From the IMG/VR virus record IMGVR_UViG_3300045988_171568: 51,263 nt of DNA; one strand, written 5' to 3'. This document shows, piece by piece, positions 4,083 to 51,262 of the stretch. The first letter of the stretch is position 1. Each line of letters begins with the position of its first letter. Made by a program: the position numbers and the translations under genes. The notes beneath the pieces were generated by a model, which worked only from the letters and a program-made list of their open reading frames with translations, was not told the DNA's origin and ran no database searches. Source of the DNA: a virus.

Positions 4083-4440
4083 AGACAATGTAGGCAAGCT
4101 TACCGTCGAAGAAATGGCTTCTCGCATTAACCGTTCACCGGTTGCAGTCAAGATGTATATTCTTCGCAATCGTATCGACCTGAAAGGCAAGGTACATCGA
4201 AACATTTTTCAGGAAATCCTTAAAATAAAGTTTGTCAACCCGGAATACTTCAAGCCTACACGCAATTTTTACAAAGCCGTAGGAATTACGCAGACGCGGT
4301 TCTGGGACTTATACTACGGACGTGTACAGATCACACAAATGGAGTATATAGCAATCACATCGCACCTAGGTGTTACTCTTCAGGAAGCATTCGAGGCGCA
4401 GCAGTTAAACCTCTTTGAAGGAGAATTAAAAAATGAGTAA
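4039..4440 (+). CDS. Putative DNA-binding protein (Myb/SANT-like N-terminus, XRE-like HTH C-terminus)
   Basis: 133 aa. Contains WTVAEKKFVEDNVGKLTVEEMASRINRSPVAVKMYILRNR and AVGITQTRFWDLYYGRVQITQMEYIAITSHLGVTLQEAF. Confidence 0.45.
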   Translation: MNQGKWTVAEKKFVEDNVGKLTVEEMASRINRSPVAVKMYILRNRIDLKGKVHRNIFQEILKIKFVNPEYFKPTRNFYKAVGITQTRFWDLYYGRVQITQMEYIAITSHLGVTLQEAFEAQQLNLFEGELKNE

Positions 4441-7400
4441 ATTAAGTCAGACCAGTATAGATCATGTAAAGTCTTCTACCAATATTGTAGATGTCGTTTC
4501 TCTTTTCGTCCGTCTTGAACGTAAAGGTCCGGCATACATAGGACTTTGCCCTTTTCACAACGACCGACATCCGTCTATGCGCGTCGATCCGGTCAGACAG
4601 ATGTACAAGTGCTTTGTGTGCGGTGCAGGAGGCGATGTGTTCGACTTTCTCATGCGTCACGAGAACTTTTCTTTCATCGAAGCAGTACGATGGTGCGCTT
4701 CACGTGCCGGAATACAACTCGAAGAAACGGAAGAAACCCAGGAAGAAATCAAAGCACGCAAGCATCGAGAGGCTCTGTATATCGCTATGAACGCGGCTAC
4801 CGGATGGTTTCAGAATAATCTTCCGGCTGTATCTTCTTATCTTGCTGGTAGAGGATTCTCTATTACCGACGAAGTTATCAAGACATTTCGTATAGGATAT
4901 GCACCTCAGGGAAACAATATACAGAAACAGCTTCAGGATGCCGGATATTCGGCCGACATACTTCAGGAAGTTAATATAATAGGGAAAGGGAAATACGGAT
5001 ATTACGACGTGTTTCAGGACCGTATAACATTCCCTTTTCTCGACATTCAGGGACGTACTGTAGCATATAGCGGACGTATTGTTACACCTAGAGAGAATAC
5101 CGGAAAGTATCTCAACACTAACAATACACCCCTGTTTCAAAAAGGTAATTACCTGTTTGGTCTGTATCAGGCATACCGTTCTATCAGCAGTCAGGGTACA
5201 GCTTATCTAGTAGAAGGGCAGTTTGATGTAATGAGCCTGTATGCAGCAGGAGTTAAGAATGTAGTTGCCGGTTCCGGAACTGCACTTACCGATGCTCAGG
5301 TGAAGCTTTTATCCCGATATACCAGTAAGGTAATACTTATGTACGATGCAGATGCAGCCGGACTTAAGGCAAGCATAGCAAACTGTGAGTCTATGCTTCG
5401 GCAAGGTCTTAATGTTAGTTGCGTACGTCTGCCAGAAGGTCAGGATCCGGATAATCTTGCCCAGGAAAAGAAAGAACATACGGCTGCATGGCTAGTCAAC
5501 AACACTTGTGGTTTTGTAACCTACTTCTGCAATATCTTTTTGCCTGAAACTCTCGAAGATCCGGTTTTGAAAGAAGAAAAACTTTCTATCATATCCAGAC
5601 TGGTTGCCTGTGTTGAAACAGAAACACTTCGTACAGACTATATACGTACACTGGCACGCCGTTTCAACCAGGAATACGATGCGGTAGAAAGAAAGGTAAA
5701 ACAGATCCGTTCCGAACTTCCGGCTGTTCCAGCTGTAGAAACCATGAAGCCAGGTGTGTACGGACTGGATATTCTTCCCGACATGGATACTGCCGGGAAA
5801 AGTATTCATGTGGCAGGCAGCTTTGATGAATTTCTCGAAAATTACGAAACAGAACCCCAGATATACTTTCACGAGTCTGTAACCATGCAGGATATACAGC
5901 TTATCCGTCGTGACTGCTCACTGCTGGATGTTAATGCCGACGATCTGGTTATATCTGCTTCAGGCGAAGAATGCGCTACCATGGCAGCTTTGTCCGAATG
6001 TTACCGCAATGGAATAACCAATATATCTGTATTGGTTCCCGGAATGACCATTGCCAGTATGACAAAGAAAAAACGCATGGCAGACGATTATATAGAAGAA
6101 GAAATAGCCGACGAAGAATGGATATTCATCAACGCTTATCTATATAAGTATAACCTGTTCATGAACCAATATAAGCCGGTAGACCGTACTCCATATCTAC
6201 AGCGATGCGCCGAAATGATAGCCTGCACCGACGAGTCTGTACGTATTGTGAACTTCAGCAAGTTCACACAATGGATGGAACTTACCAAGACAGAGCTTAA
6301 TGTTTTCCTGAAGCCTTATCTGGCAAAGAGAAAATCACGTGTAGCCATTAATGCGCAGCGCGACGACAGTTCAGAAGAATACTACGATCCGGATGTAGTT
6401 CCCGATTACGTAGAAGATAATCCGGTATACAAAAAAATGATGGACGACTACCAGTTTTATCCCCGTCTGAACAAGAACGGAGAACCGGTAGGATACATCT
6501 TTACCAACAACCGCCAAGGCGGTACATTGGTGGGCGATTTTTTTATGGAACCACTTATTCACATCGTGAGCGACAAGGACGAGGAAAATAAGCGTATTGT
6601 CAAGATTAACCGACGCTATTACAAGAAGCCTATCTATCTGGAAGCTCCCAGTAAGTGCTTTTTGAAAAAGAGCACTATCGAAGAACGTCTTATCATGCTG
6701 GAGGCAGTAAACTTCAGCAATGGAGAAGAAAAGCACTGGACCAAGATACGCGAGTGGATGTCGAGAAACTATACATCATGCCGCGAGGTACGTACCTATG
6801 GCAACCAGCAGCCCGACGGTTTCAGCCGCGACCAGTCAACGATGTTTTTTGCATTTGCAAACGGAATCTATCACCAGCAGGAAGGCGTTTGGCGGTTTGA
6901 TCCGGTGAACGAACTGGGAGTAGTAGAGCACCAGAACGAAAACTGGTATCTTCCTGCCTTTTCATCGCTGTACATCAATAGCGACATGAAAGACAAGTAC
7001 GAAACCATTTCCAGCCTGATGTATCGTGAAATTCCTGCCGAGAAGCAATGTTCTTTCGAAAAGTGGGCCGACCTGATGAACCGTGTATATTCACTTAACG
7101 ATAATGGCAAGTGGGCTATAATCTTTGCCGTGATGTGCGCATTTCGAAGTAACATTCACTGCATAGACCGTCTGTTTACCGCCCCCTTTTTTATGGGACC
7201 TATGTCTTCTGGTAAGACACAGATTGCGATATCTATCCGTTCGCTGTTTATTTCGCCCAAAGTACCGATTTTTAACCTTAACATTGGTACAGATGCAGCT
7301 ATGTCTACACTTATGAGCACTTTTCGCGACGTACCGGTAGTGCTCGACGAGTACAACAACAAGGATATTTCCGATGTAAAGTTTCAGGCCTTGAAAGGAA

Positions 7401-8458
7401 TTGTATACGATGGTGACGGCCGTCAGAAACGTAAGGGAACTTCCGGCAAGGAAATTGAGAACGATAAGGTTTTTACACCTGTTATCATTTGCGGTCAGGA
7501 AACACCTCAGCGCGACGATAATGCACTGATGTCACGTATTATAGTTTGCGAGGTTCCTAAGCCTGCCCGTCAGCGTACCCCTGAAGAAATAGCTTTGTTC
7601 AACGAACTGAAAGACATAGAAGAACAAGGCTTATGCAATGTGCTTGCCCAGATTCTTCAGCTTCGCACGCTTGTCATGGATCATTTCAGAGAATTGAAAC
7701 AGGAATGCTACAAGGAGCTGAAAGAACAGATGATGGCTCATGGCGAAATAGACCGACTCATGAAAACTGCTTCTCTGTTTCTTGCTACCTGCAAGATGAT
7801 CGAACAGCACACAGAACTGAAGCTGCCCTTTACCTATGCAGAGTTCTTTCAGATAGCATGCAACAAGATACAGTTTCAGGCAGATCTTATCAGCCGTACG
7901 GATAAGCTGGCAACCTTCTTCAAGGCTATGGATGTGATGATTGATACCAAGGCTATCATTACCGGCCGAGATTTTGATTTCGATTATCCTACAAGCCTTA
8001 CACTTGTCGGCCCTGGAAAGACTTCTGTTCCCTGCCCTGTTCCTGAAGGAACCTGCGTAATGTACATACGTCTGTCTGTCATTTACGCACAGTTCGACCG
8101 TTCATCGTTCAATCGTGAGCAGTCTTCACAATCTACCATCGAGCAGAACCTTCGAAGCAACTCATGTTACATAGGTCCGGTATCGGCACGTCGTTTTACC
8201 TGGCAGGAATCCGTAGAAGTGCCAGTCGGCGAACTGGAGAACTCAGGAAAGGATTTGCCCCCGGAATATACTGTAATGGGCAACGATTCGAAGATGGTAC
8301 GAAGCATGAAGCGTTTTTCCAAAAATACGAGTTGCATTGCCTTGAATTACGATGTTCTCAGTACCATGTATGGCATAGACTTGAAACGGAACATAGAGTC
8401 ATCCGATACCGATAATAAAGCAGATTCCAATAACGAAAAACAAGAATTACCATTTTAA
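4433..8458 (+). CDS. Fused DNA primase / P-loop helicase (DnaG-type zinc finger plus Toprim, with a C-terminal D5/P4-alpha-like NTPase)
   Basis: 1341 aa. CHC2 zinc finger CPFHNDRHPSMRVDPVRQMYKCFVCGAGGD. Toprim EGQFDVMSL...LMYDADAAG. Walker A GPMSSGKTQ and Walker B VVLDEYNN near aa 920-990. Confidence 0.85.
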   Translation: MSKLSQTSIDHVKSSTNIVDVVSLFVRLERKGPAYIGLCPFHNDRHPSMRVDPVRQMYKCFVCGAGGDVFDFLMRHENFSFIEAVRWCASRAGIQLEETEETQEEIKARKHREALYIAMNAATGWFQNNLPAVSSYLAGRGFSITDEVIKTFRIGYAPQGNNIQKQLQDAGYSADILQEVNIIGKGKYGYYDVFQDRITFPFLDIQGRTVAYSGRIVTPRENTGKYLNTNNTPLFQKGNYLFGLYQAYRSISSQGTAYLVEGQFDVMSLYAAGVKNVVAGSGTALTDAQVKLLSRYTSKVILMYDADAAGLKASIANCESMLRQGLNVSCVRLPEGQDPDNLAQEKKEHTAAWLVNNTCGFVTYFCNIFLPETLEDPVLKEEKLSIISRLVACVETETLRTDYIRTLARRFNQEYDAVERKVKQIRSELPAVPAVETMKPGVYGLDILPDMDTAGKSIHVAGSFDEFLENYETEPQIYFHESVTMQDIQLIRRDCSLLDVNADDLVISASGEECATMAALSECYRNGITNISVLVPGMTIASMTKKKRMADDYIEEEIADEEWIFINAYLYKYNLFMNQYKPVDRTPYLQRCAEMIACTDESVRIVNFSKFTQWMELTKTELNVFLKPYLAKRKSRVAINAQRDDSSEEYYDPDVVPDYVEDNPVYKKMMDDYQFYPRLNKNGEPVGYIFTNNRQGGTLVGDFFMEPLIHIVSDKDEENKRIVKINRRYYKKPIYLEAPSKCFLKKSTIEERLIMLEAVNFSNGEEKHWTKIREWMSRNYTSCREVRTYGNQQPDGFSRDQSTMFFAFANGIYHQQEGVWRFDPVNELGVVEHQNENWYLPAFSSLYINSDMKDKYETISSLMYREIPAEKQCSFEKWADLMNRVYSLNDNGKWAIIFAVMCAFRSNIHCIDRLFTAPFFMGPMSSGKTQIAISIRSLFISPKVPIFNLNIGTDAAMSTLMSTFRDVPVVLDEYNNKDISDVKFQALKGIVYDGDGRQKRKGTSGKEIENDKVFTPVIICGQETPQRDDNALMSRIIVCEVPKPARQRTPEEIALFNELKDIEEQGLCNVLAQILQLRTLVMDHFRELKQECYKELKEQMMAHGEIDRLMKTASLFLATCKMIEQHTELKLPFTYAEFFQIACNKIQFQADLISRTDKLATFFKAMDVMIDTKAIITGRDFDFDYPTSLTLVGPGKTSVPCPVPEGTCVMYIRLSVIYAQFDRSSFNREQSSQSTIEQNLRSNSCYIGPVSARRFTWQESVEVPVGELENSGKDLPPEYTVMGNDSKMVRSMKRFSKNTSCIALNYDVLSTMYGIDLKRNIESSDTDNKADSNNEKQELPF

Positions 8459-8469
8459 CAAACAGCAAT

Positions 8470-8697
8470 ATGATTACAGATAATCCATTAAAAAGTAAGA
8501 TTGATTTAGAAAAGAATCCCAAAGGGACAGAGTTAAAGGTAGCCTTACAGCGCGAACGCGAAAAAAGCGGTCGCTATGTATCCATACCAGGCGACAAGAG
8601 TCACACAAAGATTTTTGTCCGTGACGGAGAAGATCCAGAAAAACGGATCTTGTCTTTCATCAAAAAGATTAATAACAGAACTACAATGTGGAATTAG
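8470..8697 (+). CDS. Hypothetical protein
   Basis: 75-aa ORF. Confidence 0.35.
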   Translation: MITDNPLKSKIDLEKNPKGTELKVALQREREKSGRYVSIPGDKSHTKIFVRDGEDPEKRILSFIKKINNRTTMWN

Positions 8698-9545
8698 ATA
8701 TGGACTTAACAAAAAAAATAGATTATTCGATAAGCCTTTTAAGAAAGTGTGAAAACATGGCTCTTGAAATGGATCCTGAAAACGGCTTTTATTTAGCTTT
8801 TTCTGGGGGGAAAGATTCACAGGTCTTGTTTCATTTAGCTATAATGAGTGGTGTAAAATTTAAAGCTCACATGAATCTCACGAGTGTAGATCCTCCGGAA
8901 GTTATCAGATTTGTAAAACAACATTATCCTGATGTAGTACTGATAAAGCCTAGAATGAGTATTTATGATATGGTAAAAAAAAGAGGATGTCTTCCTACTA
9001 AAAGAGTCAGATGGTGCTGTGAAGAATTTAAAGAAATGTCAGGAGCCGGTAAGGTTACGTTAATCGGAATAAGGCGAGAGGAAAGCGCAAGAAGATCGAA
9101 GCGTAATGAGGTAGAAATGGATAATTATAAATTCAGAGGAAGCTTTGACCAGTGGAGCGAGCATCGCGAAAAAATGGTGACTTGCGTGGGAGGGAAAGAT
9201 AAAATAATTGTCAGTCCGATACTCTACTGGACGAGCCGCGATGTTTGGGAGTTCCTTAGCTCAAACGACATACCTCATTGCAGTCTTTACGACAAAGGGT
9301 ATAAAAGAATAGGTTGCATACTCTGTCCAATGTCAAATTATAAACAAAAGATTAGAGAGATAAGAGATTATCCGCATGTTAAAAGAAATTGGATAAAAGC
9401 TATAGAGTGGATGATGGAAAATAAATGGACTGAAAAACGTTTAGCAGATAATCCTGAAATGGCTTTCAACTGGTGGATAAGCGGAAAATCTTTCAAACAG
9501 TTTTATGCAGATGAATATTTGCAACAAAAAATAAATTTTGATTAA
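8688..9545 (+). CDS. PAPS-reductase / PP-loop ATPase family protein (phage IbrA/DndC-like)
   Basis: 285 aa. PP-loop LAFSGGKDSQV. C-terminal Cys cluster RIGCILCPM. Confidence 0.75.
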   Translation: MELDMDLTKKIDYSISLLRKCENMALEMDPENGFYLAFSGGKDSQVLFHLAIMSGVKFKAHMNLTSVDPPEVIRFVKQHYPDVVLIKPRMSIYDMVKKRGCLPTKRVRWCCEEFKEMSGAGKVTLIGIRREESARRSKRNEVEMDNYKFRGSFDQWSEHREKMVTCVGGKDKIIVSPILYWTSRDVWEFLSSNDIPHCSLYDKGYKRIGCILCPMSNYKQKIREIRDYPHVKRNWIKAIEWMMENKWTEKRLADNPEMAFNWWISGKSFKQFYADEYLQQKINFD

Positions 9546-10035
9546 TATGAAAATCACAGCAATACCAGGGACAGAGCTTGAATCAGTATTCAAGCAGTTC
9601 TATGAACAGATGAAGAGTGAACAAGAATTAGTTTTGAAAGTGATAACAGAGTTTACTGGTGTAAAGCCAGTAAACTTTGGATATTACTGGATTTTTGGAT
9701 ATACATGTAAATGGGCATACGATATGGTACGTTTTCCTGAAGACAGTAATCCAGCTCATATGATTTCTTACACTATAAATGGCAAGACTTATTTTAAGCC
9801 AAACAAAAGGCTTATAATATCAAAGGCTTTTATAAAAAAATGGTGTGAAACTTTTAAAGGTTTAAATGGCAATATACTAACAAAATATGGTATTCCGGTT
9901 ATGGATGATAATTCTGGAAGATACGTTAACTGGCTTCCCTGTTATGTAAATGATAAATATGGAATTGTGGTTCCTTCATCATTACTTGATTATATGCCTA
10001 ATATTAAAAACAAACAATACAACATTGAGTTATGA
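9538..10035 (+). CDS. Hypothetical protein; candidate partner (toxin?) of the downstream Panacea-like protein
   Basis: 165-aa ORF in an AT-rich stretch. Its stop overlaps the next start (ATGA). Confidence 0.4.
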   Translation: MINMKITAIPGTELESVFKQFYEQMKSEQELVLKVITEFTGVKPVNFGYYWIFGYTCKWAYDMVRFPEDSNPAHMISYTINGKTYFKPNKRLIISKAFIKKWCETFKGLNGNILTKYGIPVMDDNSGRYVNWLPCYVNDKYGIVVPSSLLDYMPNIKNKQYNIEL

Positions 10036-10571
10036 TAGATGGAGAATATAAAAGGAAACTAAAACTTGAATGTTTTGAATATATAATTTTTAAGTTTAAA
10101 AAATGGTACGAAGAAGATGGCAGATTAGATTTTTCCGACATGATGTCAAGGTTAAAAGCACAAAAACTTCTATTTTTTTGTGCTGTCATTAAAAATCCTT
10201 ATGGAGAGGATTTATTAAACATCTTTAATAAGTGGCATTTAACTTCTACTGGATTTCTAGAATCAGAAATTTATTATGCTATGGTTGATGATAGTTTTGA
10301 AAACATGAGAATTAAGGATTTTATTTTTTCTTTTAAAACAAAAAATTTTCAATCAAACCTAAGTAGTTATTATAAAGAAAAAATAGACATTGCGATAGGT
10401 TGCTTAAAAGTAGTAAGTCCTAAACTAATACACAAACATGCTTTTGAATTATCTGATTTACACAAGTGCTGGATATTATGGCAAGCTGGATGGATTACTT
10501 CTAAATCATTAAACAAAAGTTGTATACAAGTTTCTACTGATGAAATAAGAAAATGTAAACCTATATTTTAA
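10032..10571 (+). CDS. Possible Panacea (DUF4065/SocA-like) domain protein
   Basis: 179 aa. SRLKAQKLLFFCAVI ... FNKWHLTSTGFLESEIYYAM resembles the KLQKLLYF ... F.AW.yGPv...vY pattern of DUF4065. Assignment made by eye only. Confidence 0.35.
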   Translation: MIDGEYKRKLKLECFEYIIFKFKKWYEEDGRLDFSDMMSRLKAQKLLFFCAVIKNPYGEDLLNIFNKWHLTSTGFLESEIYYAMVDDSFENMRIKDFIFSFKTKNFQSNLSSYYKEKIDIAIGCLKVVSPKLIHKHAFELSDLHKCWILWQAGWITSKSLNKSCIQVSTDEIRKCKPIF

Positions 10572-10580
10572 AATAATATT

Positions 10581-10793
10581 ATGAATAAGAAAGAAGAATT
10601 AGCAAAAATATTTGCTTCAGGAAGTAATGTTCCAACCTTAAAAATTTTGAGAGAGCTTTCATTTATTGAAGGTTGGGATGCATGCATGGAACATCTTGCT
10701 TCATTGCCGTTGGATGAAGCTGCAAACGAAATAGTATATTGGCGGACAAATGGTTCGGAAAGATATTGTAAATCAAAGGAGGATAGAATATGA
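10581..10793 (+). CDS. Hypothetical protein
   Basis: 70-aa ORF. Confidence 0.35.
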   Translation: MNKKEELAKIFASGSNVPTLKILRELSFIEGWDACMEHLASLPLDEAANEIVYWRTNGSERYCKSKEDRI

Positions 10794-10984
10794 GTAATAA
10801 AACACATCAGCCAAATAGCGAAAGCAAAATAATTGAACTTGATACTGTTCTTGAATATAAGGATGGTGAGGTATTCATCAACAAGATGAATACAAACGAA
10901 ATGCCGGCAACACTGACATTTGCTCTTGTTCTATCATTAAATAAAACGATTGTTGAATATTATAAATCACGAGATAAGAAATGA
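10790..10984 (+). CDS. Hypothetical protein
   Basis: 64-aa ORF with 4-nt overlaps on both sides. Confidence 0.35.
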   Translation: MSNKTHQPNSESKIIELDTVLEYKDGEVFINKMNTNEMPATLTFALVLSLNKTIVEYYKSRDKK

Positions 10985-11548
10985 ACCTGAACGAACTAAA
11001 AGATATAGCCTACCAGTGCGCAGTTGCGCACGGTTGGCACAAGGAATCATTAACAGATGATCATTGGCTTTGCCTGGTTATTTCCGAGCTGATGGAAGCA
11101 GTAGAAGCCGACCGGAAAAACAAGCATGCAGATGTAGAACTATTTAATTACATCATTGATGATAACCTTCGGGAAAAACATTTGTATGGTAGTGAATATG
11201 AATTGTCTTATGTACAAGTCTTCGAAAATTACATTAAAGACAGCGTAGAAGATGAACTTGCAGATGCATGTATCCGCCTGTTAGATTATGCAGGACTAAA
11301 AGGTTTACGATCTGGATAATTACGACTACGAGGGAAGCGATACAGAAGATTATTCTGATATGACGTTTACCGAGGCTGTTTTTTTAATTGTAAAATACAT
11401 TACAGACAATTTTTATAAGCCGGACGAACTGCTGAACGAAATCTTTGCTTTCAGTGCTTCTATTAAAGTAAATATCATGTGGCATATCCAGGAGAAAATG
11501 AAATACAACCAATTAAGAAGCGACAAACATGGAAACAAAGCATATTGA
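10981..11548 (+). pseudogene. MazG-like all-alpha NTP pyrophosphohydrolase, split by a +1 frame change near 11297-11305
   Basis: The N-terminal part (10981-11319) has AHGWH...ISELMEAVEA...ELADACIRLLDYAG. The second frame is open from 11300 (KVYDLDNYDYEG...) and ends in the family-typical tail MKYNQLRSDKHGNKAY (11360-11548 in the ORF track). Confidence 0.55.
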
Positions 11549-11801
11549 AAAGAAAACCGTTACACGATATAAGTTTGATATATCCCTTGCAAAAAAGATA
11601 CAGAACAAAGAAATTGAAGGCAAGATTGTGACACGCGACGGACGTAATGTAAGGATCCTGTGCTTTGACAGAAATTCGATAGACTGTATTGTAGTGCTTA
11701 TTGACAACAAAAGCTGGGAAATGATAGAATCTTATACTTTAGACGGTGCTCTTTACGATTTAGGCATAGAAAGCCCGCTAGATTTATTTATATACTGCTA
11801 G
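11529..11801 (+). CDS. Hypothetical protein
   Basis: 90-aa ORF. Confidence 0.35.
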   Translation: METKHIEKKTVTRYKFDISLAKKIQNKEIEGKIVTRDGRNVRILCFDRNSIDCIVVLIDNKSWEMIESYTLDGALYDLGIESPLDLFIYC

Positions 11802-11859
11802 TTCTTATTCGGATAAAACAGAAGATAAATAAGAAATAAACACTTTTTTTCGCAAATAC

Positions 11860-11891
11860 CTTGTATTAGACTAAAATTTATACTACATTTG
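11860..11891 (+). promoter_or_regulatory. Bacteroides-type promoter of cassette A
   Basis: cTTG (11860-11863), N20, TAcaTTTG (11884-11891). The predicted start is about 6-8 nt downstream, at the first base of the long helix. Confidence 0.55.
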
Positions 11892-11894
11892 CGA

Positions 11895-12078
11895 TACCTT
11901 ACATTACGACATAGGGCAAGCGAGAGTTTGCCAACATATATCTGCTGGCATTTTTTATGCCAGTAAATTTCCGCATATAAAAATATAGCGGCTTTGTACC
12001 CCCGTGTGGAGTGTTAATGCACCCACTGCCCTTGTCGGTGTAAGGTAACGGGAAAGGCAAAGCCGTTTTCTTTTGCCT
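11895..12078 (+). ncRNA. Structured 5' leader RNA, copy A (unclassified; paralog at 34204-34378)
   Basis: A long-range helix of about 21 bp (11895-11918 with 12027-12047) encloses three hairpins. It also encloses a 26-nt block, CCCGTGTGGAGTGTTAATGCACCCAC (12001-12026), identical in copy B. A further hairpin lies at 12055-12078. Confidence 0.6.
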
Positions 12079-12104
12079 GTAATGCCAATAAATACCTTAT
12101 AGAC

Positions 12105-12353
12105 ATGGCAACAATTACATTAAACAAAACAAAGTCCAGCACTATACAGCAATGGCTGGATAGCGAGAACAGTATTATTACCTCTATCATGGAGGAATCC
12201 GTATCAAACCGCCAGACACTTCTTCTGTCAAACGCTATGCTGGCATTTTCCGTTATGGTATGCTCTGCATTTCTTCACTGGGCAGCTGCATTGATTTGCC
12301 TTATTTGGTTTGTCCTCTCACTTATTATGTGCCGGAAAGGAGGTTTGCGATGA
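12105..12353 (+). CDS. Small two-TM membrane protein (cassette A)
   Basis: 82 aa. Hydrophobic LLLSNAMLAFSVMVCSAFLHWAAALICLIWFVLSLIM followed by CRKGGLR. About 85% identical to 34420-34677. Confidence 0.65.
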   Translation: MATITLNKTKSSTIQQWLDSENSIITSIMEESVSNRQTLLLSNAMLAFSVMVCSAFLHWAAALICLIWFVLSLIMCRKGGLR

Positions 12354-12586
12354 AAATACAGGGAGTCAGACTAACAGACCGTGCGCTGGGGCTGATACAC
12401 ACTTTACAGGAAAACAACAATGCCAGTATCGAGTGCATTGCCGAAGGTATCTATGAAATCGAAGAAATAGTATTAAACCGTGAGGCTGACGCAAGCAACG
12501 ACGATCGTCTTATTATGATGCAGACACTTCGCGATATCCGTCACCTTCTCGACGAACTGAAGGTTATTCCAGGATACAGTTATTAG
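12350..12586 (+). CDS. Small acidic helical protein (cassette A); paralogs at 31121-31363 and 34674-34910
   Basis: 78 aa starting at MKIQG. ATGA overlap with the membrane gene. AAGGAGG lies 6 nt upstream. The ORF-track start at 12260 is an out-of-context extension. Confidence 0.65.
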   Translation: MKIQGVRLTDRALGLIHTLQENNNASIECIAEGIYEIEEIVLNREADASNDDRLIMMQTLRDIRHLLDELKVIPGYSY

Positions 12587-12717
12587 CCGTCCGGATGGTG
12601 TATACATTCATTTTCCCGACAAGGTTCCGCAACCGTGCTGCTGTCCGGTATTCACGTCGGGAAAATGGCGAGTCATTTATCGAAAACATACACTAAAATT
12701 ATACGAAAGTATACTTA

Positions 12718-12762
12718 AGAAGGGATATAGTAAACTTGCTTTATTATATCCCTTCTTTCTTA
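12718..12762 (+). terminator. Intrinsic terminator of cassette A
   Basis: 12-bp stem AGAAGGGATATA / TATATCCCTTCT (12718-12729 with 12745-12756), followed by a T-rich tract. Confidence 0.6.
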
Positions 12763-12842
12763 TGTAAAAATCCCCCGAACCCCCTGAATTAAAATATTTG
12801 CAGACACGCGTAATTTTGCACGCAGAATTTTGCGAAAAATGC

Positions 12843-13198
12843 GACCAACAGACCAACAGACCAACATTTCAAAAAACGGCAAATACAGCATAAAACCATA
12901 ACACGCTGATATATAGATATATATATTATTTTATTAAAGTATATATATATAAAAAAGTTGTTGGTCGCTGTTGGTCGCTGTTGGTCCGTGTTGGTCGCTG
13001 TTGGTCGGAGTGTTGGTCCGGATATTTCGAATGTTGGTCTGCTCGGACCAACAAAATACCCCATTTTTCGGGCTTTGTTGGTCGTGTTGGACGCCGACCA
13101 ACAGTAAAAGAATACTTAGTAAACTTTGTTTTGTCGCTGAAAATCACTAACTTTGCTTATGTCGAATCACGCTTTGTTGGTCTGTTGGTCTGTTGGTC
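12843..13198. repeat. Iteron array: 16 perfect copies of the octamer TGTTGGTC/GACCAACA flanking an AT-rich tract; candidate phage replication origin
   Basis: Reverse-orientation copies start at 12843, 12851, 12859, 13046 and 13096. Forward copies start at 12959, 12969, 12979, 12989, 12999, 13011, 13032, 13076, 13175, 13183 and 13191, with an imperfect copy at 13086. A (TA)n-rich segment spans 12909-12956. Confidence 0.8.
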
Positions 13199-13236
13199 GC
13201 AAAAAATTAGAAAAGCAAGGCAAAAAATTTTTTTTT

Positions 13237-13725
13237 ATGATAACCACATCTATTACTTTAACCCCATATCTTGCCGAATATCTCCGCGGAAAGTATGCAT
13301 CCGGATCGGATAATGTTGTAAACATACCCGATTCTTCGGACTTGTATCACGTAATCTGGAACTACATGTCGCGCCGCCCTTCAGACGTGACCGAAACATC
13401 CGGAAATATTACGATTGCTCTTCCCTGCCGGCGCGAAGGAAAGGATCCTGCTATATACAATTATCTATCTGAACGTGCAGTGCGCTGCGTAGACAAGGCA
13501 GTGCGCCGTGAGTTCAATCAGGAGCTTCACTCCTTTCTGCTTGAGAACGATCAGCGCGGACACCTGTTCGATAACATTGATGTAGTGCTTCAGTTCATCA
13601 ACATGTATCGCCTGGAAAGTATTACCGAAGATGCCTTGCTGAAAAATTTCTACCGCTGGAGGGAAAACCTGCGCAAGCGGAAAGCACGCCGCGAACGGAA
13701 AAAGGGATTGATTGGTATTTTATAG
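13237..13725 (+). CDS. Hypothetical protein with a basic C-terminus, directly downstream of the iteron array
   Basis: 162 aa from MITTSITL. C-terminal RWRENLRKRKARRERKKG. The ORF-track start at 13153 lies inside the repeats. Confidence 0.5.
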   Translation: MITTSITLTPYLAEYLRGKYASGSDNVVNIPDSSDLYHVIWNYMSRRPSDVTETSGNITIALPCRREGKDPAIYNYLSERAVRCVDKAVRREFNQELHSFLLENDQRGHLFDNIDVVLQFINMYRLESITEDALLKNFYRWRENLRKRKARRERKKGLIGIL

Positions 13726-32263: not shown

Positions 32264-32609
32264 TAAGGTGACAATGATACACAGAGGGTTATACGCACAT
32301 ATATGTCCTCTGTGTGGAAATATACTTGCATCGTCTTCAGAAAAAGATATGATGCCTGAGTTCTCAATATGCGAATGTGACAAGAATGGTAACAAGTTGC
32401 CTGTGTATGAAACATACAATGCAGGTGATTCTATAATGATCCGCAGAAATACTTATCCCCGGTTTGTTGGTAAGGTAACGATGGGGGTGCAGTCTGACAT
32501 AGAGGATGTCAAGTGGATTGATAATGTTAATAATGTAATGGATGCAGCTAAGGCAATGAACAAGGCTGCTGAATTTTTGTGTAAAAGGAAAAACTATGAT
32601 AAGCGTTGA
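32253..32609 (+). CDS. Hypothetical zinc-ribbon-like protein
   Basis: 118 aa. Contains CPLCG...CECD. Confidence 0.4.
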   Translation: MKINKVTMIHRGLYAHICPLCGNILASSSEKDMMPEFSICECDKNGNKLPVYETYNAGDSIMIRRNTYPRFVGKVTMGVQSDIEDVKWIDNVNNVMDAAKAMNKAAEFLCKRKNYDKR

Positions 32610-32877
32610 CCAACAGGTTATGTGCGAGAGGCTCTATAAGGAAGGTAAGCTAAAGATTAAGGAGATTATGGCAGTGACCGGTATTCGCTCTGAACAGACC
32701 GTATACCGAATACTGGATGCTGCTGGCATTCCCAGACGACCAACAAGGGGAACGGTCATGAAAGCTACGATTTCGATGGATAAGGAAACTGTTGATATCA
32801 TTAATAGAGTAAACCCTAGGAACTTATCTGAATGGATATGTGACCTGATTAAAAAATCTTATAATGATGAAAGTTAA
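32596..32877 (+). CDS. Small DNA-binding protein (N-terminal HTH, C-terminal RHH/CopG-like segment)
   Basis: 93 aa. Contains IKEIMAVTGIRSEQTVYRIL and ATISMDKETVDIINRVNPRNLSEWICDLIKK. A terminator hairpin follows at about 32876-32905. Confidence 0.45.
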   Translation: MISVDQQVMCERLYKEGKLKIKEIMAVTGIRSEQTVYRILDAAGIPRRPTRGTVMKATISMDKETVDIINRVNPRNLSEWICDLIKKSYNDES

Positions 32878-48540: not shown

Positions 48541-49692
48541 TTATAATTTCTGTAACTGTCGAACGAAAGCATTATCATTAATTCGAGCATATATCATCGT
48601 CATGCTTATTTGTCTATGTCCGATTACTTGCTGTATAGTCGTGATAGGTATATCTCTATTGATTAATCGTGATGCACATGTATGTCTGGCTACGTGAGCC
48701 GTTACATGTTTTTTTAGACTGCATTTTTTTAATGCTACTTGTAATTTTGAATTAAAGCTGCAACGATTTACCCCCACGTTGAAAAATTCAGAAAGCCTTG
48801 TTTTATATTTACTGTATATCTGTTCTGCACGACCATCAAATAAAGCCCACATTGGCAATCGTACTGGTGTGCTAGTTTTTACTGATGTATATTCCAACCA
48901 AAGCCGACCGTTGTCTTCTTTAAAATTATCTTCAGACAGAGAAGCAAAGTCACTTATTCTAGTACCTACATAACACATAAAAAGAAACTGATCTAGTACC
49001 AGCTCGTGAGATTTGTCTGCAATTCCTGAAGCTGCATAGTTCTCTATAATTCGTACATCATCATCGCTTAGTGCTTTCATCTTATAAGTTGATTTAAAAT
49101 CTTTTGGATCATGATAAAACGCTAAAGAATCAGCCGGAACTTTGTTCCCGTATAATTTACGTGCGATGTTATAATATGCCTTAACAACGTGCATTTCTTT
49201 GCAGACTGTAGAATACTTTAGTTTTCCTGATTCCATTAGAAAATTCATAAATCCACGAAAGAACTCCTCTGTCAATGCTGTTACAGGACATGTATCTCTG
49301 TATCTTTTCAATGTCCTAAGTACATTTGCGTGAATTTCTATAGTTCGAGGCTTCAATCCTCTTTCGTACATAGCCTTTTCCCACATAGAATACCAATCAG
49401 CCGATGTTCCACGCCTGGAATAAATGTCGTGCAATTTAGTTAGAGTCATTTCGCCTGCATAAGTCAGTTCAATTTCCTCTAAGCTATAAACAAGTTTCCT
49501 GATTAATAGGTTAAGATTAGCAGAATTTGGACTTTTAGAAATAAGCCCGTAATCTTCGTTCCATTCGTCATTAAAGACTCTTACGTCAGTGTCAAGTTCA
49601 ATACTTGATCCATACTGGGAACACTTCACAAAAATAGCGAGCATTCCGCTGTGAGCACGATGTGCCACAACTTCAAATCTGATTTTGTTCAT
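48541..49692 (-). CDS. Tyrosine recombinase (candidate invertase for the adjacent cassette, or a second integrase)
   Basis: 383 aa. Bacteroidetes integrase architecture. C-terminal HVARHTCASRL...VIGHRQISMTMIYARI gives the R/H-x-x-R/Y catalytic pattern. Confidence 0.8.
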   Translation of the reverse strand: MNKIRFEVVAHRAHSGMLAIFVKCSQYGSSIELDTDVRVFNDEWNEDYGLISKSPNSANLNLLIRKLVYSLEEIELTYAGEMTLTKLHDIYSRRGTSADWYSMWEKAMYERGLKPRTIEIHANVLRTLKRYRDTCPVTALTEEFFRGFMNFLMESGKLKYSTVCKEMHVVKAYYNIARKLYGNKVPADSLAFYHDPKDFKSTYKMKALSDDDVRIIENYAASGIADKSHELVLDQFLFMCYVGTRISDFASLSEDNFKEDNGRLWLEYTSVKTSTPVRLPMWALFDGRAEQIYSKYKTRLSEFFNVGVNRCSFNSKLQVALKKCSLKKHVTAHVARHTCASRLINRDIPITTIQQVIGHRQISMTMIYARINDNAFVRQLQKL

Positions 49693-49846: not shown

Positions 49847-51016
49847 TTATACAGCAAACGAGTTAAAGAATTTAACCCCTTCCTGCTTTGACTCTTCCAG
49901 GACATGAGCATATATCAGCGTTTCCCGGTAATCGGAATGTCCCATGATTTCCTTTAATGTTGCCAGATCTTTTGTTTTTTGCAAAAATAGGGTAGCAAAA
50001 GTATGCCGGCCTGCTTTGCTGGATAATGGTTTGTTTATACCAACTTTTCTGGCGATACGCTTAAGGTATTCGTTTATCTTCTGGTCTGATATCACTGTTG
50101 TAAACAACAATCCGTTTTTTCTCTTGCCTGAAGCTTTCTTGATTATTTTCTTCAACGGATCTGACAAAGGTATTACAATAGGATCAGGTTTACTGTTCCG
50201 TAGCTTTATTCGGTAATAAGTAAATGAACTTTTCCCAATACCTTCTATTCTTATGTTCTTTGCGTCCCCAATATGAAGACTGCTAAAGCACATAAACAAA
50301 AATATTTGTAAGACAGACTGGTAATTTTCTGTAAGAGAATTAGACTTGTATAAGTCAACAAGTGTTGTTAGTTCTTCTTCCGTGAGATAAGTAAAATCAC
50401 TTTTAGATCGTGTTTTTACCTTTATGTTTTCAAAAGGATTTTTAGTCATGTATCCTTCTTTGATAGCGGCACGACAGTATTTTTTTATGCAACTCATATT
50501 CTTATTTATGGTACTGTCTTTGTTTTTGAGCTTTTTCTTAAGATACACTTTGTATTTTAAGATAAAATCTTCGTCCAGGCATTCCAGTCTTAAATCAGGA
50601 TCATAAACTCTCATCTTATTGATTGCATCCAGATGCACATCAATCGTAGAACTCTCCAGTTCCCCGCGATGGCGGTGCATATAATCCTTGACATAATCAT
50701 AGAAGGTCCTGAAATCATCCGGACGATTGTATTCTTTCATAAAGGTTTCCTTGGTAAGAGTCTTTTTCAGCAGACGATATCTTACCATGATGTCGTTAAC
50801 TCGTGCTCTGATCTTTTCGATACACAGATTATAATCCTTGTGATTCTTTTCTCGTGTGAGAACTTTTCCGGTCACATTATCGAAGTTTTCTACCAGGATT
50901 GAAAGATTTGTAGGAATCGCAATTTTTTTTCTTTCTACGTAGAAAGAAACATAAACAGGGGCACACCCGTCCTTGTTTACATAGCTTGTCGCTTGATAAG
51001 TTTTAATAACAGCCAT
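49847..51016 (-). CDS. int: Tyrosine integrase next to attR/tRNA-Cys
   Basis: 389 aa. N-terminal arm-binding-like domain. C-terminal AGRHTFATLF...IMGHSDYRETLIYAHV. Arm-type repeats lie immediately upstream. Confidence 0.85.
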   Translation of the reverse strand: MAVIKTYQATSYVNKDGCAPVYVSFYVERKKIAIPTNLSILVENFDNVTGKVLTREKNHKDYNLCIEKIRARVNDIMVRYRLLKKTLTKETFMKEYNRPDDFRTFYDYVKDYMHRHRGELESSTIDVHLDAINKMRVYDPDLRLECLDEDFILKYKVYLKKKLKNKDSTINKNMSCIKKYCRAAIKEGYMTKNPFENIKVKTRSKSDFTYLTEEELTTLVDLYKSNSLTENYQSVLQIFLFMCFSSLHIGDAKNIRIEGIGKSSFTYYRIKLRNSKPDPIVIPLSDPLKKIIKKASGKRKNGLLFTTVISDQKINEYLKRIARKVGINKPLSSKAGRHTFATLFLQKTKDLATLKEIMGHSDYRETLIYAHVLEESKQEGVKFFNSFAV

Positions 51017-51185: not shown

Positions 51186-51202
51186 CTATGAGGTTCCTGG
51201 CG
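51186..51202. repeat. attR core (CTATGAGGTTCCTGGCG)
   Basis: Exact match to 1716-1732. Confidence 0.85.
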
Positions 51203-51262
51203 GATTCGAACCGCCGTACACGGTTTTGCAGACCGCTGACTAAGCCACTCATCCAAGGAACC
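51191..51262 (-). tRNA. tRNA-Cys (anticodon GCA), copy 2, the integration target
   Basis: 72-nt cloverleaf: GGTTCCT acceptor, CTGCAAA anticodon loop, GGCGG-TTCGAAT-CCGCC T-arm, discriminator T. Confidence 0.95.

What the first reader, a model, noticed from the sequence alone, without database searches (positions are those of the whole stretch)
12843..13198. Phased octamer iteron array flanking an AT-rich tract; probable origin recognised by the primase-helicase
There are 16 perfect copies of TGTTGGTC/GACCAACA in 356 bp, where about 1.6 would be expected by chance in the whole window. Three head-to-tail reverse copies (12843-12866) and three forward copies (13175-13198) form a perfect 24-bp inverted repeat that brackets the region. 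Five forward copies at 12959-13006 are spaced exactly 10 bp apart, so they lie on one helical face. A (TA)n-rich segment at 12909-12956 lies between the clusters, as a DNA-unwinding element would. Satellite phage P4 uses octamer iterons (TGTTCACC) in ori and crr, bound by its fused primase-helicase alpha. This phage encodes an analogous fused primase-helicase (4433-8458). Alternative roles are a pac/terminase recognition site, a partition centromere, or an operator array for the downstream basic protein (13237-13725).
Basis: partly seen in the sequence, partly recalled or inferred. Interest (0 to 1): 0.65.

Follow-up and report, generated by a model that had tools for sequence, protein, structure and literature searches.

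The report
Probable phage origin: octamer iteron array
A dense array of 16 copies of an 8-base motif around the most easily melted DNA in this integrated Bacteroidales phage is most likely its replication origin, read by the phage's fused primase-helicase; this is a familiar kind of element, newly mapped in a very common family of gut and oral phages.

Summary
There are 16 exact TGTTGGTC/GACCAACA copies in 12843-13198, where 1.3 are expected in the whole window. The bracketing inverted repeat is 27 nt. Five copies sit at exactly 10-bp spacing. The (TA)n block is the least stable 40-bp duplex in the 51-kb window.

The same scaffold recurs in over 100 related phage loci (BV01-like Bacteroides/Phocaeicola, Prevotella, Parabacteroides and Porphyromonas gingivalis phages). 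The motif differs by lineage: GACCAAC, GTCCAAC, (A/T)CCTACA, GCCCAAC, GTACTAC.

The 1341-aa protein is a DnaG-type primase fused to a helicase whose fold matches SCCmec Cch (DUF927, the SaPIbov1 Rep kind). Initiators of that kind bind short iterons just downstream of their gene.

Sister phages L212 and L213 are alignable on both sides. The segment exchanged between them is a few small unnamed ORFs plus the replication gene plus the array. The array motif changes with that segment, while the downstream 162-aa gene stays 83% identical. This behaves as a rep-ori cassette. It argues against the 162-aa protein and against terminase as the reader of the motif.

Best explanation: a replication origin (about 0.68), with the late-operon promoter embedded in it. 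No binding or replication data exist. I class it as a new member of a known kind, of moderate interest.

The parts
4433..8458 (+). Replication protein (1341 aa). The N-terminal part, roughly residues 1-410, is a DnaG-type primase. The C-terminal 542 residues (nt 6830-8455) are a Cch/DUF927-like helicase with a C-terminal beta-rich domain. It is the candidate reader of the octamers.
   Evidence: Pfam Zn_ribbon_DnaG, DNAG_N and Toprim. TIGR01391 dnaG at 1.5e-114. Walker A GPMSSGKT and Walker B VVLDEY. Sub-threshold DUF927 hits in 9 of 10 family members. AlphaFold model with pLDDT 82.5. Top Foldseek match 5dgk, SCCmec Cch, E = 2.9e-10.
12717..12757 (+). Terminator-like hairpin with an 18-bp stem that closes the early and cargo operon.
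   Evidence: The RNA fold is -24.4 kcal/mol, z = -6.1.
12769..12785 (+). C-rich box AATCCCCCGAACCCCCT. It is conserved at this position in most phages that carry the DnaG-Cch fusion. Its function is unknown.
   Evidence: Sequence. Conserved in Bacteroides, Prevotella and Porphyromonas phage loci.
12840..12866 (-). Left bracket: three contiguous reverse octamers (12843-12866) inside the 27-nt left arm of the inverted repeat.
   Evidence: Bracket arms of 12-27 nt are present in most relatives.
12909..12956 (.). AT/(TA)n-rich block, the candidate DNA-unwinding element.
   Evidence: Least stable 40-bp and 60-bp duplex in the window. The equivalent block is the least stable 40-mer of the whole ~20-kb locus in 20 of 20 DnaG-fusion-type genomes.
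12959..13018 (+). Forward cluster of six octamers: five at 10-bp spacing, then one at 12 bp.
13032..13103 (.). Inner sites: forward 13032-13039, reverse 13046-13053 (followed by AAAAT), forward 13076-13083, the variant TGTTGGAC at 13085-13092, and reverse 13096-13103.
   Evidence: The same arrangement (a reverse copy plus AAAAT, then a forward pair plus a reverse copy) is conserved in relatives.
13125..13155 (+). Bacteroidota-type promoter consensus (-33 TTTG, 19-nt spacer, -7 TAACTTTG) that would drive the 162-aa gene and the head operon.
   Evidence: One of only four + strand matches in the window. Another lies just upstream of the first + strand ORF of the early region. The TAACTTTG box is conserved in relatives. 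The consensus itself comes from my own knowledge of Bacteroides promoters.
13175..13201 (+). Right bracket: three contiguous forward octamers (13175-13198) inside the 27-nt right arm. It lies between the predicted promoter and the start codon at 13237.
   Evidence: This bracket has decayed in L212, where the cognate replication gene was replaced.
13237..13725 (+). First gene after the array, encoding a 162-aa protein of unknown fold with a basic C-terminal helix. It is the neighbour of the array, not the determinant of its motif.
   Evidence: AlphaFold pLDDT 91.9. No PDB fold match. Its basic C-terminal helix is largely conserved across motif classes. It is 83% identical between phages with unrelated arrays.

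Best explanation
The array is the phage's origin of replication. It forms one functional cassette with the gene for a self-loading initiator, a DnaG-type primase fused to a Cch/DUF927-type helicase.

Inferred mechanism (none of these steps is shown):
1. After induction the early operon makes the fusion protein.
2. A DNA-binding part of it, probably the C-terminal domain by analogy with SaPI Rep and Cch2, recognises the 7-8-bp iterons.
3. Protein assembles on the tandem brackets and on the inner cluster, on either side of the (TA)n block.
4. That block is the easiest place in the genome to melt, and it opens.
5. The helicase loads itself and the fused primase starts synthesis.

The early-operon terminator lies just upstream of the array. 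The late-operon promoter lies inside its right part, with three iterons between promoter and start codon. Initiator occupancy may therefore also influence late transcription. That coupling is speculation.

What is shown: the anatomy, its conservation, the fold of the protein, and the joint exchange of gene and array. What is inferred: binding, melting and initiation.
For: (1) Anatomy. Sixteen exact octamers in both orientations flank the least stable duplex of the window.

(2) Conserved physical property. In 20 of 20 species-level independent loci with this replication protein, the least stable 40-mer of ~20 kb lies inside the array, 285-371 bp upstream of the 162-aa gene. The chance expectation is about 3.5% per locus.

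(3) The initiator. It has a DnaG primase. It has a helicase with Walker A and B motifs, sub-threshold DUF927 hits in 9 of 10 members, and a top fold match to SCCmec Cch at E = 2.9e-10. The next matches are D5/E5, MCM, NrS-1, Rep40 and T-antigen helicases. PMC7581432 states that Cch (DUF927) is related to SaPIbov1 Rep. [quoted passage not shown]

(4) Position. In 9 of the 21 loci measured the gap between the replication gene and the 162-aa gene is only 545-580 nt, which is the array itself, and L137 shows the same. The 4.8-kb separation in this window is inserted cargo.

(5) Lineage-specific motifs on a conserved scaffold. L154 carries a hybrid array caught in turnover. This is the pattern expected of a protein-DNA specificity pair.

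(6) A natural swap. L213 carries the DnaG-Cch gene and a TCCTACA array. L160, L211 and L212 carry a rep963 gene and a GTCACAA array. Their 162-aa proteins are 83% identical. L212 and L213 are alignable upstream of the swapped segment and from about -130 onward through the head module. The exchanged segment holds only 1-3 small unnamed ORFs, the replication gene and the array. The D-type right bracket has decayed in L212.

(7) Other candidate readers are weakened. The GerE-type HTH has an identical recognition helix in phages with different motifs. The basic helix of the 162-aa protein is largely conserved across motif classes.
Against: - There are no data on binding, replication or marker frequency.
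- No segment or residue of the replication protein co-varies with motif class beyond the controls.
- Motifs switch between phages whose replication proteins are 72-84% identical, as in L147 and L154. Conversely, the C-terminal part of the protein is only about 41-74% identical among phages that share TGTTGGTC.
- When cargo is inserted, the array stays next to the late operon rather than next to the replication gene.
- The right bracket sits downstream of the predicted late promoter, which suggests a regulatory role.
- Arrays of the rep963-type relatives are looser and lack the melt-prone block (1 of 23).
- No DnaA boxes are present.
Confidence: 0.68

Rival explanations
1. The array is primarily a control region for the late-operon promoter. 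A protein from the replication cassette, either the initiator itself or a small co-inherited protein, binds the repeats, perhaps bridging the two brackets. It thereby represses or activates transcription of the 162-aa gene and the head genes. Replication would start elsewhere.
For: A consensus Bacteroidota promoter lies inside the array at 13125-13155, and the right bracket lies between it and the start codon. A terminator precedes the array. The array always abuts the late operon, even when cargo separates it from the replication gene. The bracket downstream of the promoter decays when the cognate replication gene is lost.
Against: Most copies and the melt-prone block lie 100-300 bp upstream of the promoter. 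Sixteen sites is far more than promoters usually use. L212 keeps the homologous promoter and gene without any D-type sites, so the promoter presumably works without them (inference). The universally conserved extreme duplex instability (20 of 20) has no obvious role in promoter control. Bracket-to-bracket helical phase is not conserved, which weakens a looping model. This role could also coexist with an origin.
Confidence: 0.15
2. The array is the packaging recognition site (pac or cos). It would be bound by a small terminase subunit and cut nearby to start headful or cohesive-end packaging.
For: It lies at the start of the head module. Its design, repeats on both sides of a central region, recalls the P1 pac site (own knowledge). 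Contig ends are strongly enriched in the array: 13 of the 23 related viral contigs truncated within 6 kb upstream end 0-406 nt before the 162-aa gene.
Against: The motif changes with the replication cassette while the part of the head module held in these loci stays homologous. TerL and the portal lie about 7-9 kb downstream, not adjacent. Contig ends are scattered over about 400 nt rather than at one position, as expected for assembly breaks in repeats and (TA)n. Virion DNA of the relative BV01 assembles into a circle spanning attP (PMC8354205).
Confidence: 0.05
3. The array is an operator or autoregulatory site for the downstream 162-aa basic protein.
For: The gene is always the first one after the array in the array-bearing loci. 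The protein has a long basic C-terminal helix. One record annotates its homologue as a transcriptional regulator.
Against: Proteins 83% identical sit behind unrelated arrays (TCCTACA against GTCACAA). The basic helix is largely conserved across all motif classes. Some homologues have no array upstream (L141, L168, L173).
Confidence: 0.03
4. The array is a partition centromere, made of contiguous short repeats bound by a ParR- or omega-like adaptor, for an episomal prophage.
For: Contiguous 8-bp repeats in direct and inverted orientation resemble the parS sites bound by omega-type proteins (own knowledge).
Against: No ParA, ParM or ParB family was detected among the early and flanking ORFs scanned. 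The element is integrated in the chromosome, with tyrosine integrase genes near its right end. BV01 integrates at an att site.
Confidence: 0.03

Closest known systems
SaPI replication origins with their Rep initiator helicases (SaPIbov1 Rep is of the DUF927/Cch kind)
   Same: The initiator is a self-loading helicase. The origin is made of multiple short iterons and lies directly downstream of the initiator gene. The C-terminal domain reads the iterons (PMC7581432). The AT-rich centre between two iteron sets, and Rep-ori specificity that differs between related elements, are from my own knowledge.
   Different: Here the primase is DnaG-type and fused in one 1341-aa chain. The iterons are 7-8 bp in 16 copies. 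They include tandem triples that form a 27-nt inverted repeat 308 bp apart. The late-operon promoter is embedded in the array. The host is Bacteroidota, and the element is a complete tailed phage rather than a satellite.
SCCmec Cch and Cch2 helicases and the putative SCCmec origin
   Same: The best fold match of the helicase half is Cch (5dgk). Cch2 binds short direct repeats (AAGTG) in the intergenic region downstream of its gene through its C-terminal domain (PMC7581432).
   Different: Cch is not fused to a primase. The SCCmec site has only three iterons, and no comparable AT-rich centre or bracket design is mentioned in the passages read. Sequence similarity here is sub-threshold.
Satellite phage P4 ori/crr and the alpha protein (own knowledge, not checked in the library)
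   Same: Octamer iterons occur in both orientations. They are read by a single polypeptide with primase, helicase and a C-terminal DNA-binding domain.
   Different: P4 needs a second cis element (crr) a few kb away that carries the same octamer. No second cluster exists in this window. The alpha helicase is of the D5/SF3 kind rather than the Cch kind. The resemblance between TGTTCACC and TGTTGGTC is superficial, since the motif here differs between close relatives.
Polyomavirus and papillomavirus origins (T antigen, E1)
   Same: Pentamer or hexamer repeats in inverted orientation lie next to an AT-rich tract. They are read by the origin-binding domain of a hexameric initiator helicase. Such helicases appear among the fold matches.
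   Different: Those origins are compact (about 60-100 bp), and the DNA-binding domain is N-terminal to the helicase.
Iteron plasmid and lambda-type origins
   Same: Repeated initiator sites lie next to an AT-rich unwinding element. Additional inverted copies lie near a promoter.
   Different: Those iterons are 17-22 bp long, spaced about two helical turns apart, and are usually accompanied by DnaA boxes. None is found here. Their initiator is not a helicase.

Membership tests
Rep-ori cassette of self-loading initiator helicases (SaPI Rep / Cch type) | An initiator helicase of the DUF927/Cch fold is encoded by the element. | tested here: met
   Foldseek top match is 5dgk (Cch), E = 2.9e-10 over about 480 columns. 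Walker A and B motifs are present. DUF927 hits occur in 9 of 10 members but fall below Pfam's cut-off.
Rep-ori cassette of self-loading initiator helicases (SaPI Rep / Cch type) | Multiple short iterons lie directly downstream of the initiator gene. | tested here: met
   In 9 of the 21 loci measured the gene-to-gene gap is 545-580 nt, which is the array itself. In this window 4.8 kb of cargo intervenes.
Rep-ori cassette of self-loading initiator helicases (SaPI Rep / Cch type) | The iterons flank an AT-rich, easily melted region. | tested here: met
   It is the least stable 40-mer of the window and of 20 of 20 related loci.
Rep-ori cassette of self-loading initiator helicases (SaPI Rep / Cch type) | Initiator and origin form a specificity pair and are inherited together. 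| tested here: met
   The gene and the array are exchanged together between L212 and L213, with homologous flanks. Motif families follow the type of replication protein across 66 genomes.
Rep-ori cassette of self-loading initiator helicases (SaPI Rep / Cch type) | Identifiable residues of the initiator's DNA-binding domain co-vary with the iteron sequence. | tested here: inconclusive
   Two C-terminal positions (1198, 1251) track ACCTACA, but the count is no higher than in controls.
Rep-ori cassette of self-loading initiator helicases (SaPI Rep / Cch type) | The initiator binds the iterons and the region supports replication. | not testable with these tools
   This needs EMSA or footprinting, plus a replication assay or marker-frequency data.
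P4-type ori/crr system | A second cis-acting cluster of the same octamer (crr) lies a few kb from ori. | tested here: not met
   Only two stray copies lie outside the array (32608, 32738), which is consistent with chance.
Iteron plasmid / DnaA-dependent origin | DnaA boxes lie next to the AT-rich region, and the iterons are 17-22 bp long. | tested here: not met
   There is no TTATCCACA with one mismatch or fewer in 12501-13300. The repeats are 7-8 bp.
pac/cos packaging site | The repeats are matched to the terminase or head module, and DNA ends map to the site. | tested here: not met
   The motif changes while the head-module genes held in the loci stay homologous. TerL is about 7 kb away. Contig ends are scattered. 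True virion ends are not testable here.
Partition centromere | A partition NTPase and a centromere-binding adaptor are encoded nearby. | tested here: not met
   No such Pfam family was found in the ORFs scanned. Not every small ORF of the window was scanned.

The most novel reading that the evidence does not exclude
The array is a dual-purpose switch rather than a plain origin. The initiator's sites bracket both the unwinding element and the late promoter, with three sites sitting in the late leader. Initiator occupancy or origin firing would then gate transcription of the whole structural operon. Rapid concerted turnover of the 7-8-bp motif on a fixed scaffold (the hybrid array in L154, a motif switch inside one clade in L147) would create replicon specificity groups. 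Such groups could stop co-resident related prophages from cross-activating each other.
Probability: 0.2. Interest if true: 0.65.

Novelty: new member of a known kind. Interest (0 to 1): 0.45.

Why it matters
BV01-like phages of Bacteroides and Phocaeicola, and their relatives in Prevotella, Parabacteroides and Porphyromonas gingivalis, are very common temperate phages of the human gut and mouth. The papers I read on them say nothing about how they replicate.

If this reading is right, it has three uses:
- It gives a defined cis element and a defined initiator for the whole family. That makes the replication step directly testable.
- It offers a compact rep-ori cassette for building Bacteroidales vectors.
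- It provides a natural series of motif variants and one hybrid array for studying how initiator-origin specificity changes.

There is also a practical point. The array appears to break metagenomic assemblies of these phages (inferred from where contigs end).

Tried and rejected
- Helical phasing between the two brackets. Differences seen (332, 321, 291, 279) looked like whole turns. Over 25 distinct distances, however, the phase is uniform, with resultant length 0.03-0.1. Rejected.
- Co-variation of whole proteins with the motif, and of 40-60-aa windows of the replication protein. No signal.
- Residue-level co-variation. Two C-terminal columns fit, but this is no better than controls. Kept only as a lead.
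Its recognition helix is identical in L147 and L156, which have different motifs. Rejected as the determinant.
- The 162-aa protein as small terminase or as reader. It has no family or fold match, it is not adjacent to TerL, and the L212/L213 comparison counts against it.
- Contig ends as real DNA termini. The positions are scattered, so assembly breaks are more likely.
- DNA similarity to deposited phages. None at the nucleotide level.
- Known RNA families in the region. None near threshold.
- The BV01 att sequence in the window. Absent.
- DnaA boxes. Absent.
- GC skew. Uninformative, because the phage genes run almost all on one strand.
- A literature search for the P4 octamer returned only unrelated primer sequences.

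Full report
**Observation**

The pattern TGTTGGTC occurs 18 times on both strands of the window, against 1.28 expected and never more than 4 in 100 shuffles. Sixteen copies lie in 12843-13198.

- The two outer triples are contiguous and mutually inverted. The perfect inverted repeat is 27 nt long (12840-12866 / 13175-13201) with 308 nt between the arms.
- Five forward copies start every 10 bp from 12959, and a sixth follows at 13011.
- A one-base variant, TGTTGGAC, lies at 13085-13092.
- By nearest-neighbour energies, 12909-12948 is the least stable 40-bp duplex of all 51,263 bp: -33.3 kcal/mol against a mean of -52.0 +/- 4.3, with the runner-up at -37.7.

**Setting**

The window holds an integrated tailed phage.

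- A glycoside hydrolase gene on the left, and two tyrosine integrase genes and a tRNA-Cys on the right, frame it.
- Nearly all phage genes read rightward.
- The early part encodes a Cro/C1-type and a GerE/LuxR-type HTH protein and a 1341-aa DnaG-type primase fusion. Cargo follows, including a PAPS-reductase-like and a pyrophosphatase-like protein.
- A strong hairpin at 12717-12757 ends this block.
- After the 650-bp gap with the array come a 162-aa gene, a 118-aa gene, an S49 head protease and a 664-aa protein. Annotated relatives call the equivalent of the 664-aa protein the major capsid protein.
- The same records place the large terminase subunit and the portal about 7-10 kb downstream of the 162-aa gene.
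- A full match to the Bacteroidota promoter consensus (TTTG, 17-21 nt, TAnnTTTG; the consensus is from my own knowledge) lies at 13125-13155 inside the array. It is one of four on the + strand. Another lies just upstream of the first + strand ORF of the early region.
- The right bracket thus falls between the predicted promoter and the start codon.

**Conservation**

The 24-nt triple octamer is present in 56 viral contigs. Relatives of the 162-aa protein were found in 152 stretches of viral contigs (80 kept as loci), in 66 species-representative genomes, in 18 Porphyromonas gingivalis phage records and in Bacteroides phage BT-TP2.

L145 is from Phocaeicola vulgatus ATCC 8482, the strain in which phage BV01 was described. 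It carries the same TGTTGGTC array.

In the loci that carry the DnaG-type fusion, the same scaffold recurs:
1. terminator
2. C-rich box AATCCCCCGnACCCCCT (present in most of these loci)
3. tandem reverse copies
4. AT-rich block
5. forward cluster
6. reverse copy followed by AAAAT
7. forward pair plus reverse copy
8. TAACTTTG box
9. tandem forward copies
10. the 162-aa gene

The motif is lineage-specific:

| Group | Motif |
|---|---|
| This phage and its closer relatives | GACCAAC |
| A large Bacteroides group | GTCCAAC |
| Some Bacteroides, Prevotella, Parabacteroides and Porphyromonas phages | (A/T)CCTACA |
| L158 | GCCCAAC |
| L154 | GTACTAC |

L154 still has GTTGGAC copies at several scaffold positions, so it appears to be caught in the middle of motif replacement. 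L147 has ACCTACA although every conserved protein places it inside the GTCCAAC clade.

The melt-prone block is the most striking constant. In 20 of 20 genome loci of this type, the least stable 40-mer of the whole ~20-kb locus lies in the array, 285-371 bp upstream of the 162-aa gene.

**The replication protein**

The N-terminal ~410 residues match bacterial DnaG (TIGR01391, 1.5e-114).

The C-terminal 542 residues carry a Walker A motif (GPMSSGKT) and a Walker B motif (VVLDEY). They hit DUF927 below threshold in 9 of 10 family members.

They fold with mean pLDDT 82.5 into a structure whose best match is the SCCmec Cch helicase: 5dgk, E = 2.9e-10, about 480 aligned columns. The next matches are poxvirus D5/E5, MCM, NrS-1, AAV Rep40 and polyomavirus T-antigen helicases.

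The model ends in a domain of two short helices and a long beta-hairpin.

According to PMC7581432:
- Cch (DUF927) is related to SaPIbov1 Rep.
- Cch2 likewise binds short direct repeats downstream of its gene.

In 9 of the 21 loci measured, the interval between the replication gene and the 162-aa gene is 545-580 nt, which is just the array. In this window, 4.8 kb of cargo has been inserted upstream of the terminator.

**Which module does the array belong to?**

Across 66 genomes the motif families follow the type of replication protein:

| Replication protein | Motif |
|---|---|
| DnaG-Cch fusion | G(A/T/C)CCAAC or (A/T)CCTACA |
| A different ~960-aa protein ('rep963', BT-TP2 gp6-like) | GT(A/T/C)ACAA |
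| VapE-like proteins | other motifs |

Modules are mostly co-inherited, so the decisive cases are recombinants.

- L160, L211 and L212 come from three independent samples. They encode a 162-aa-family protein that is 61-63% identical to those of Prevotella phages with TCCTACA arrays, and only 32-39% identical to any rep963-clade member.
- L213 encodes one 83% identical to theirs.
- L213 has the DnaG-Cch gene and 11 TCCTACA copies. L160, L211 and L212 have rep963 and 8 GTCACAA copies.
- L212 and L213 align at 78-86% in an early block upstream, and from about -130 onward through the late promoter, the 162-aa gene and the head genes.
- The non-homologous segment holds only 1-3 small unnamed ORFs, the replication gene and the array.
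- In L212 the shared promoter is intact, but the D-type bracket that follows it in L213 has decayed.

The array and the replication gene therefore behave as one exchangeable cassette. The 162-aa protein and the head module, including whatever terminase recognises, do not determine the motif.

Two further points agree with this:
- The basic C-terminal helix of the 162-aa protein is largely conserved across all motif classes.
- The recognition helix of the GerE-type early protein is identical in L147 and L156, which have different motifs.

**What remains open**

I could not identify the residues that read the motif. No 40-60-aa window of the replication protein changes allegiance with the motif.

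The two C-terminal positions that fit (1198 and 1251, the latter in a basic beta-strand YIGxVxARRFxW) are no more than the controls yield.

The small ORFs in the cassette remain formal candidates.

The rep963-type arrays are looser and lack the melt-prone block. The origin architecture described here therefore applies to the DnaG-Cch clade.

The promoter inside the array, and the bracket in the leader, leave room for an added regulatory role.

The 162-aa protein itself folds confidently (pLDDT 91.9) but matches no solved structure. Its only hit is an uncharacterised protein of Polaribacter phage Leef_1. Its function is unknown.

**Comparison and verdict**

The closest known systems are the SaPI Rep/ori pair and the Cch-type helicases. 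P4 alpha with ori/crr is a looser analogue, and its requirement for a second octamer cluster is not met here.

The papers read on BV01-like phages, P. gingivalis phages and BT-TP2 do not mention this region.

I conclude that the finding is real, and that its favoured interpretation is the best supported one (about 0.68). It is a new member of a known kind. It is valuable mainly because it makes replication of a very common phage family testable.

Noticed in passing
window 12769-12785; also L095, L137, L144, L147, L155 and others: A 17-nt C-rich box, AATCCCCCGnACCCCCT, lies just after the early terminator and about 55 nt before the left bracket. It is conserved almost base for base from Bacteroides to Porphyromonas phages, while the surrounding non-coding DNA has diverged. 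rep963-type loci have a different C-rich tract at the same place (for example CCTCCCCCTTCCCCACCCT in L181 and L189). Its function is unknown. A priming signal, a Rho-loading site or a site for another protein are untested ideas.
   Followed up: partly
viral contigs (for example L032, L069, L079, L083-L085, L087, L089, L091, L093, L100, L131): Contig ends pile up in the array. Of 23 loci truncated within 6 kb upstream of the 162-aa gene, 13 end 0-406 nt before it, at scattered positions. These are probably assembly breaks at the repeats or the (TA)n block. Real DNA ends were not excluded.
   Followed up: partly
L154 (Bacteroides MAG), -400 to -40 relative to the 162-aa gene: A hybrid array. GTAGTAC copies occupy the brackets and some inner positions, while GTTGGAC copies persist at others on the same scaffold. 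It looks like a motif replacement in progress.
   Followed up: partly
window 13237-13725: The 162-aa protein that opens the late operon is conserved across Bacteroidales phages and predicted with pLDDT 92, yet it has no solved structural relative. Its only fold hit is an uncharacterised protein of Polaribacter phage Leef_1. Eleven columns are invariant, including K136, R140 and R151 in the basic C-terminal helix. Its function is unknown.
   Followed up: partly
window 7070-7520 (residues about 880-1030 of the 4433-8458 product): The helicase core is 95-100% identical between phages whose flanking segments of the same protein are only 30-60% identical. This points to very strong constraint or to recent exchange of this segment.
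   Followed up: no
window 8470-12586: The cargo block between the replication gene and the array holds PAPS-reductase-like and pyrophosphatase-like genes, with G+C down to 0.29. It is present only in the closest relatives and is replaced by other genes or absent elsewhere. Insertions always lie upstream of the terminator, never between the array and the 162-aa gene, apart from about 300-400 nt of extra sequence in the L160/L212 lineage.
   Followed up: partly
rep963-type loci (for example L172, L174, L177, L185, L200, L201): In these phages the least stable 40-mer of the locus usually lies roughly 0.5-1.1 kb upstream of the replication gene rather than in the iteron array. Their unwinding site, if any, may therefore be elsewhere.
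   Followed up: no
L181 about -150 to -125 and L189 about -145 to -120, relative to the 162-aa gene: Three contiguous copies of an 8-bp unit (AAAGTTGC) lie near the promoter. This echoes the triple bracket of the DnaG-Cch clade but uses a different unit from the main GTTACAA repeats.
   Followed up: no
window 48541-49692, 49847-51016 and 51190-51262: Two tandem tyrosine integrase genes on the minus strand lie next to a tRNA-Cys at the window edge. The published BV01 att sequence is absent, so this relative uses a different integration site, or a second element lies here.
   Followed up: no
window 32608-32615 and 32738-32745: The only two octamer copies outside the array are both on the minus strand, 130 bp apart, inside small ORFs upstream of an endonuclease-like gene. 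The number is compatible with chance.
   Followed up: no
window 12805-12832: A tandem pair of 14-nt units (CACGCGTAATTTTG / CACGCAGAATTTTG) sits just left of the left bracket. GTCCAAC-type relatives have a TTTTGAAAA-type palindrome at the same position.
   Followed up: no
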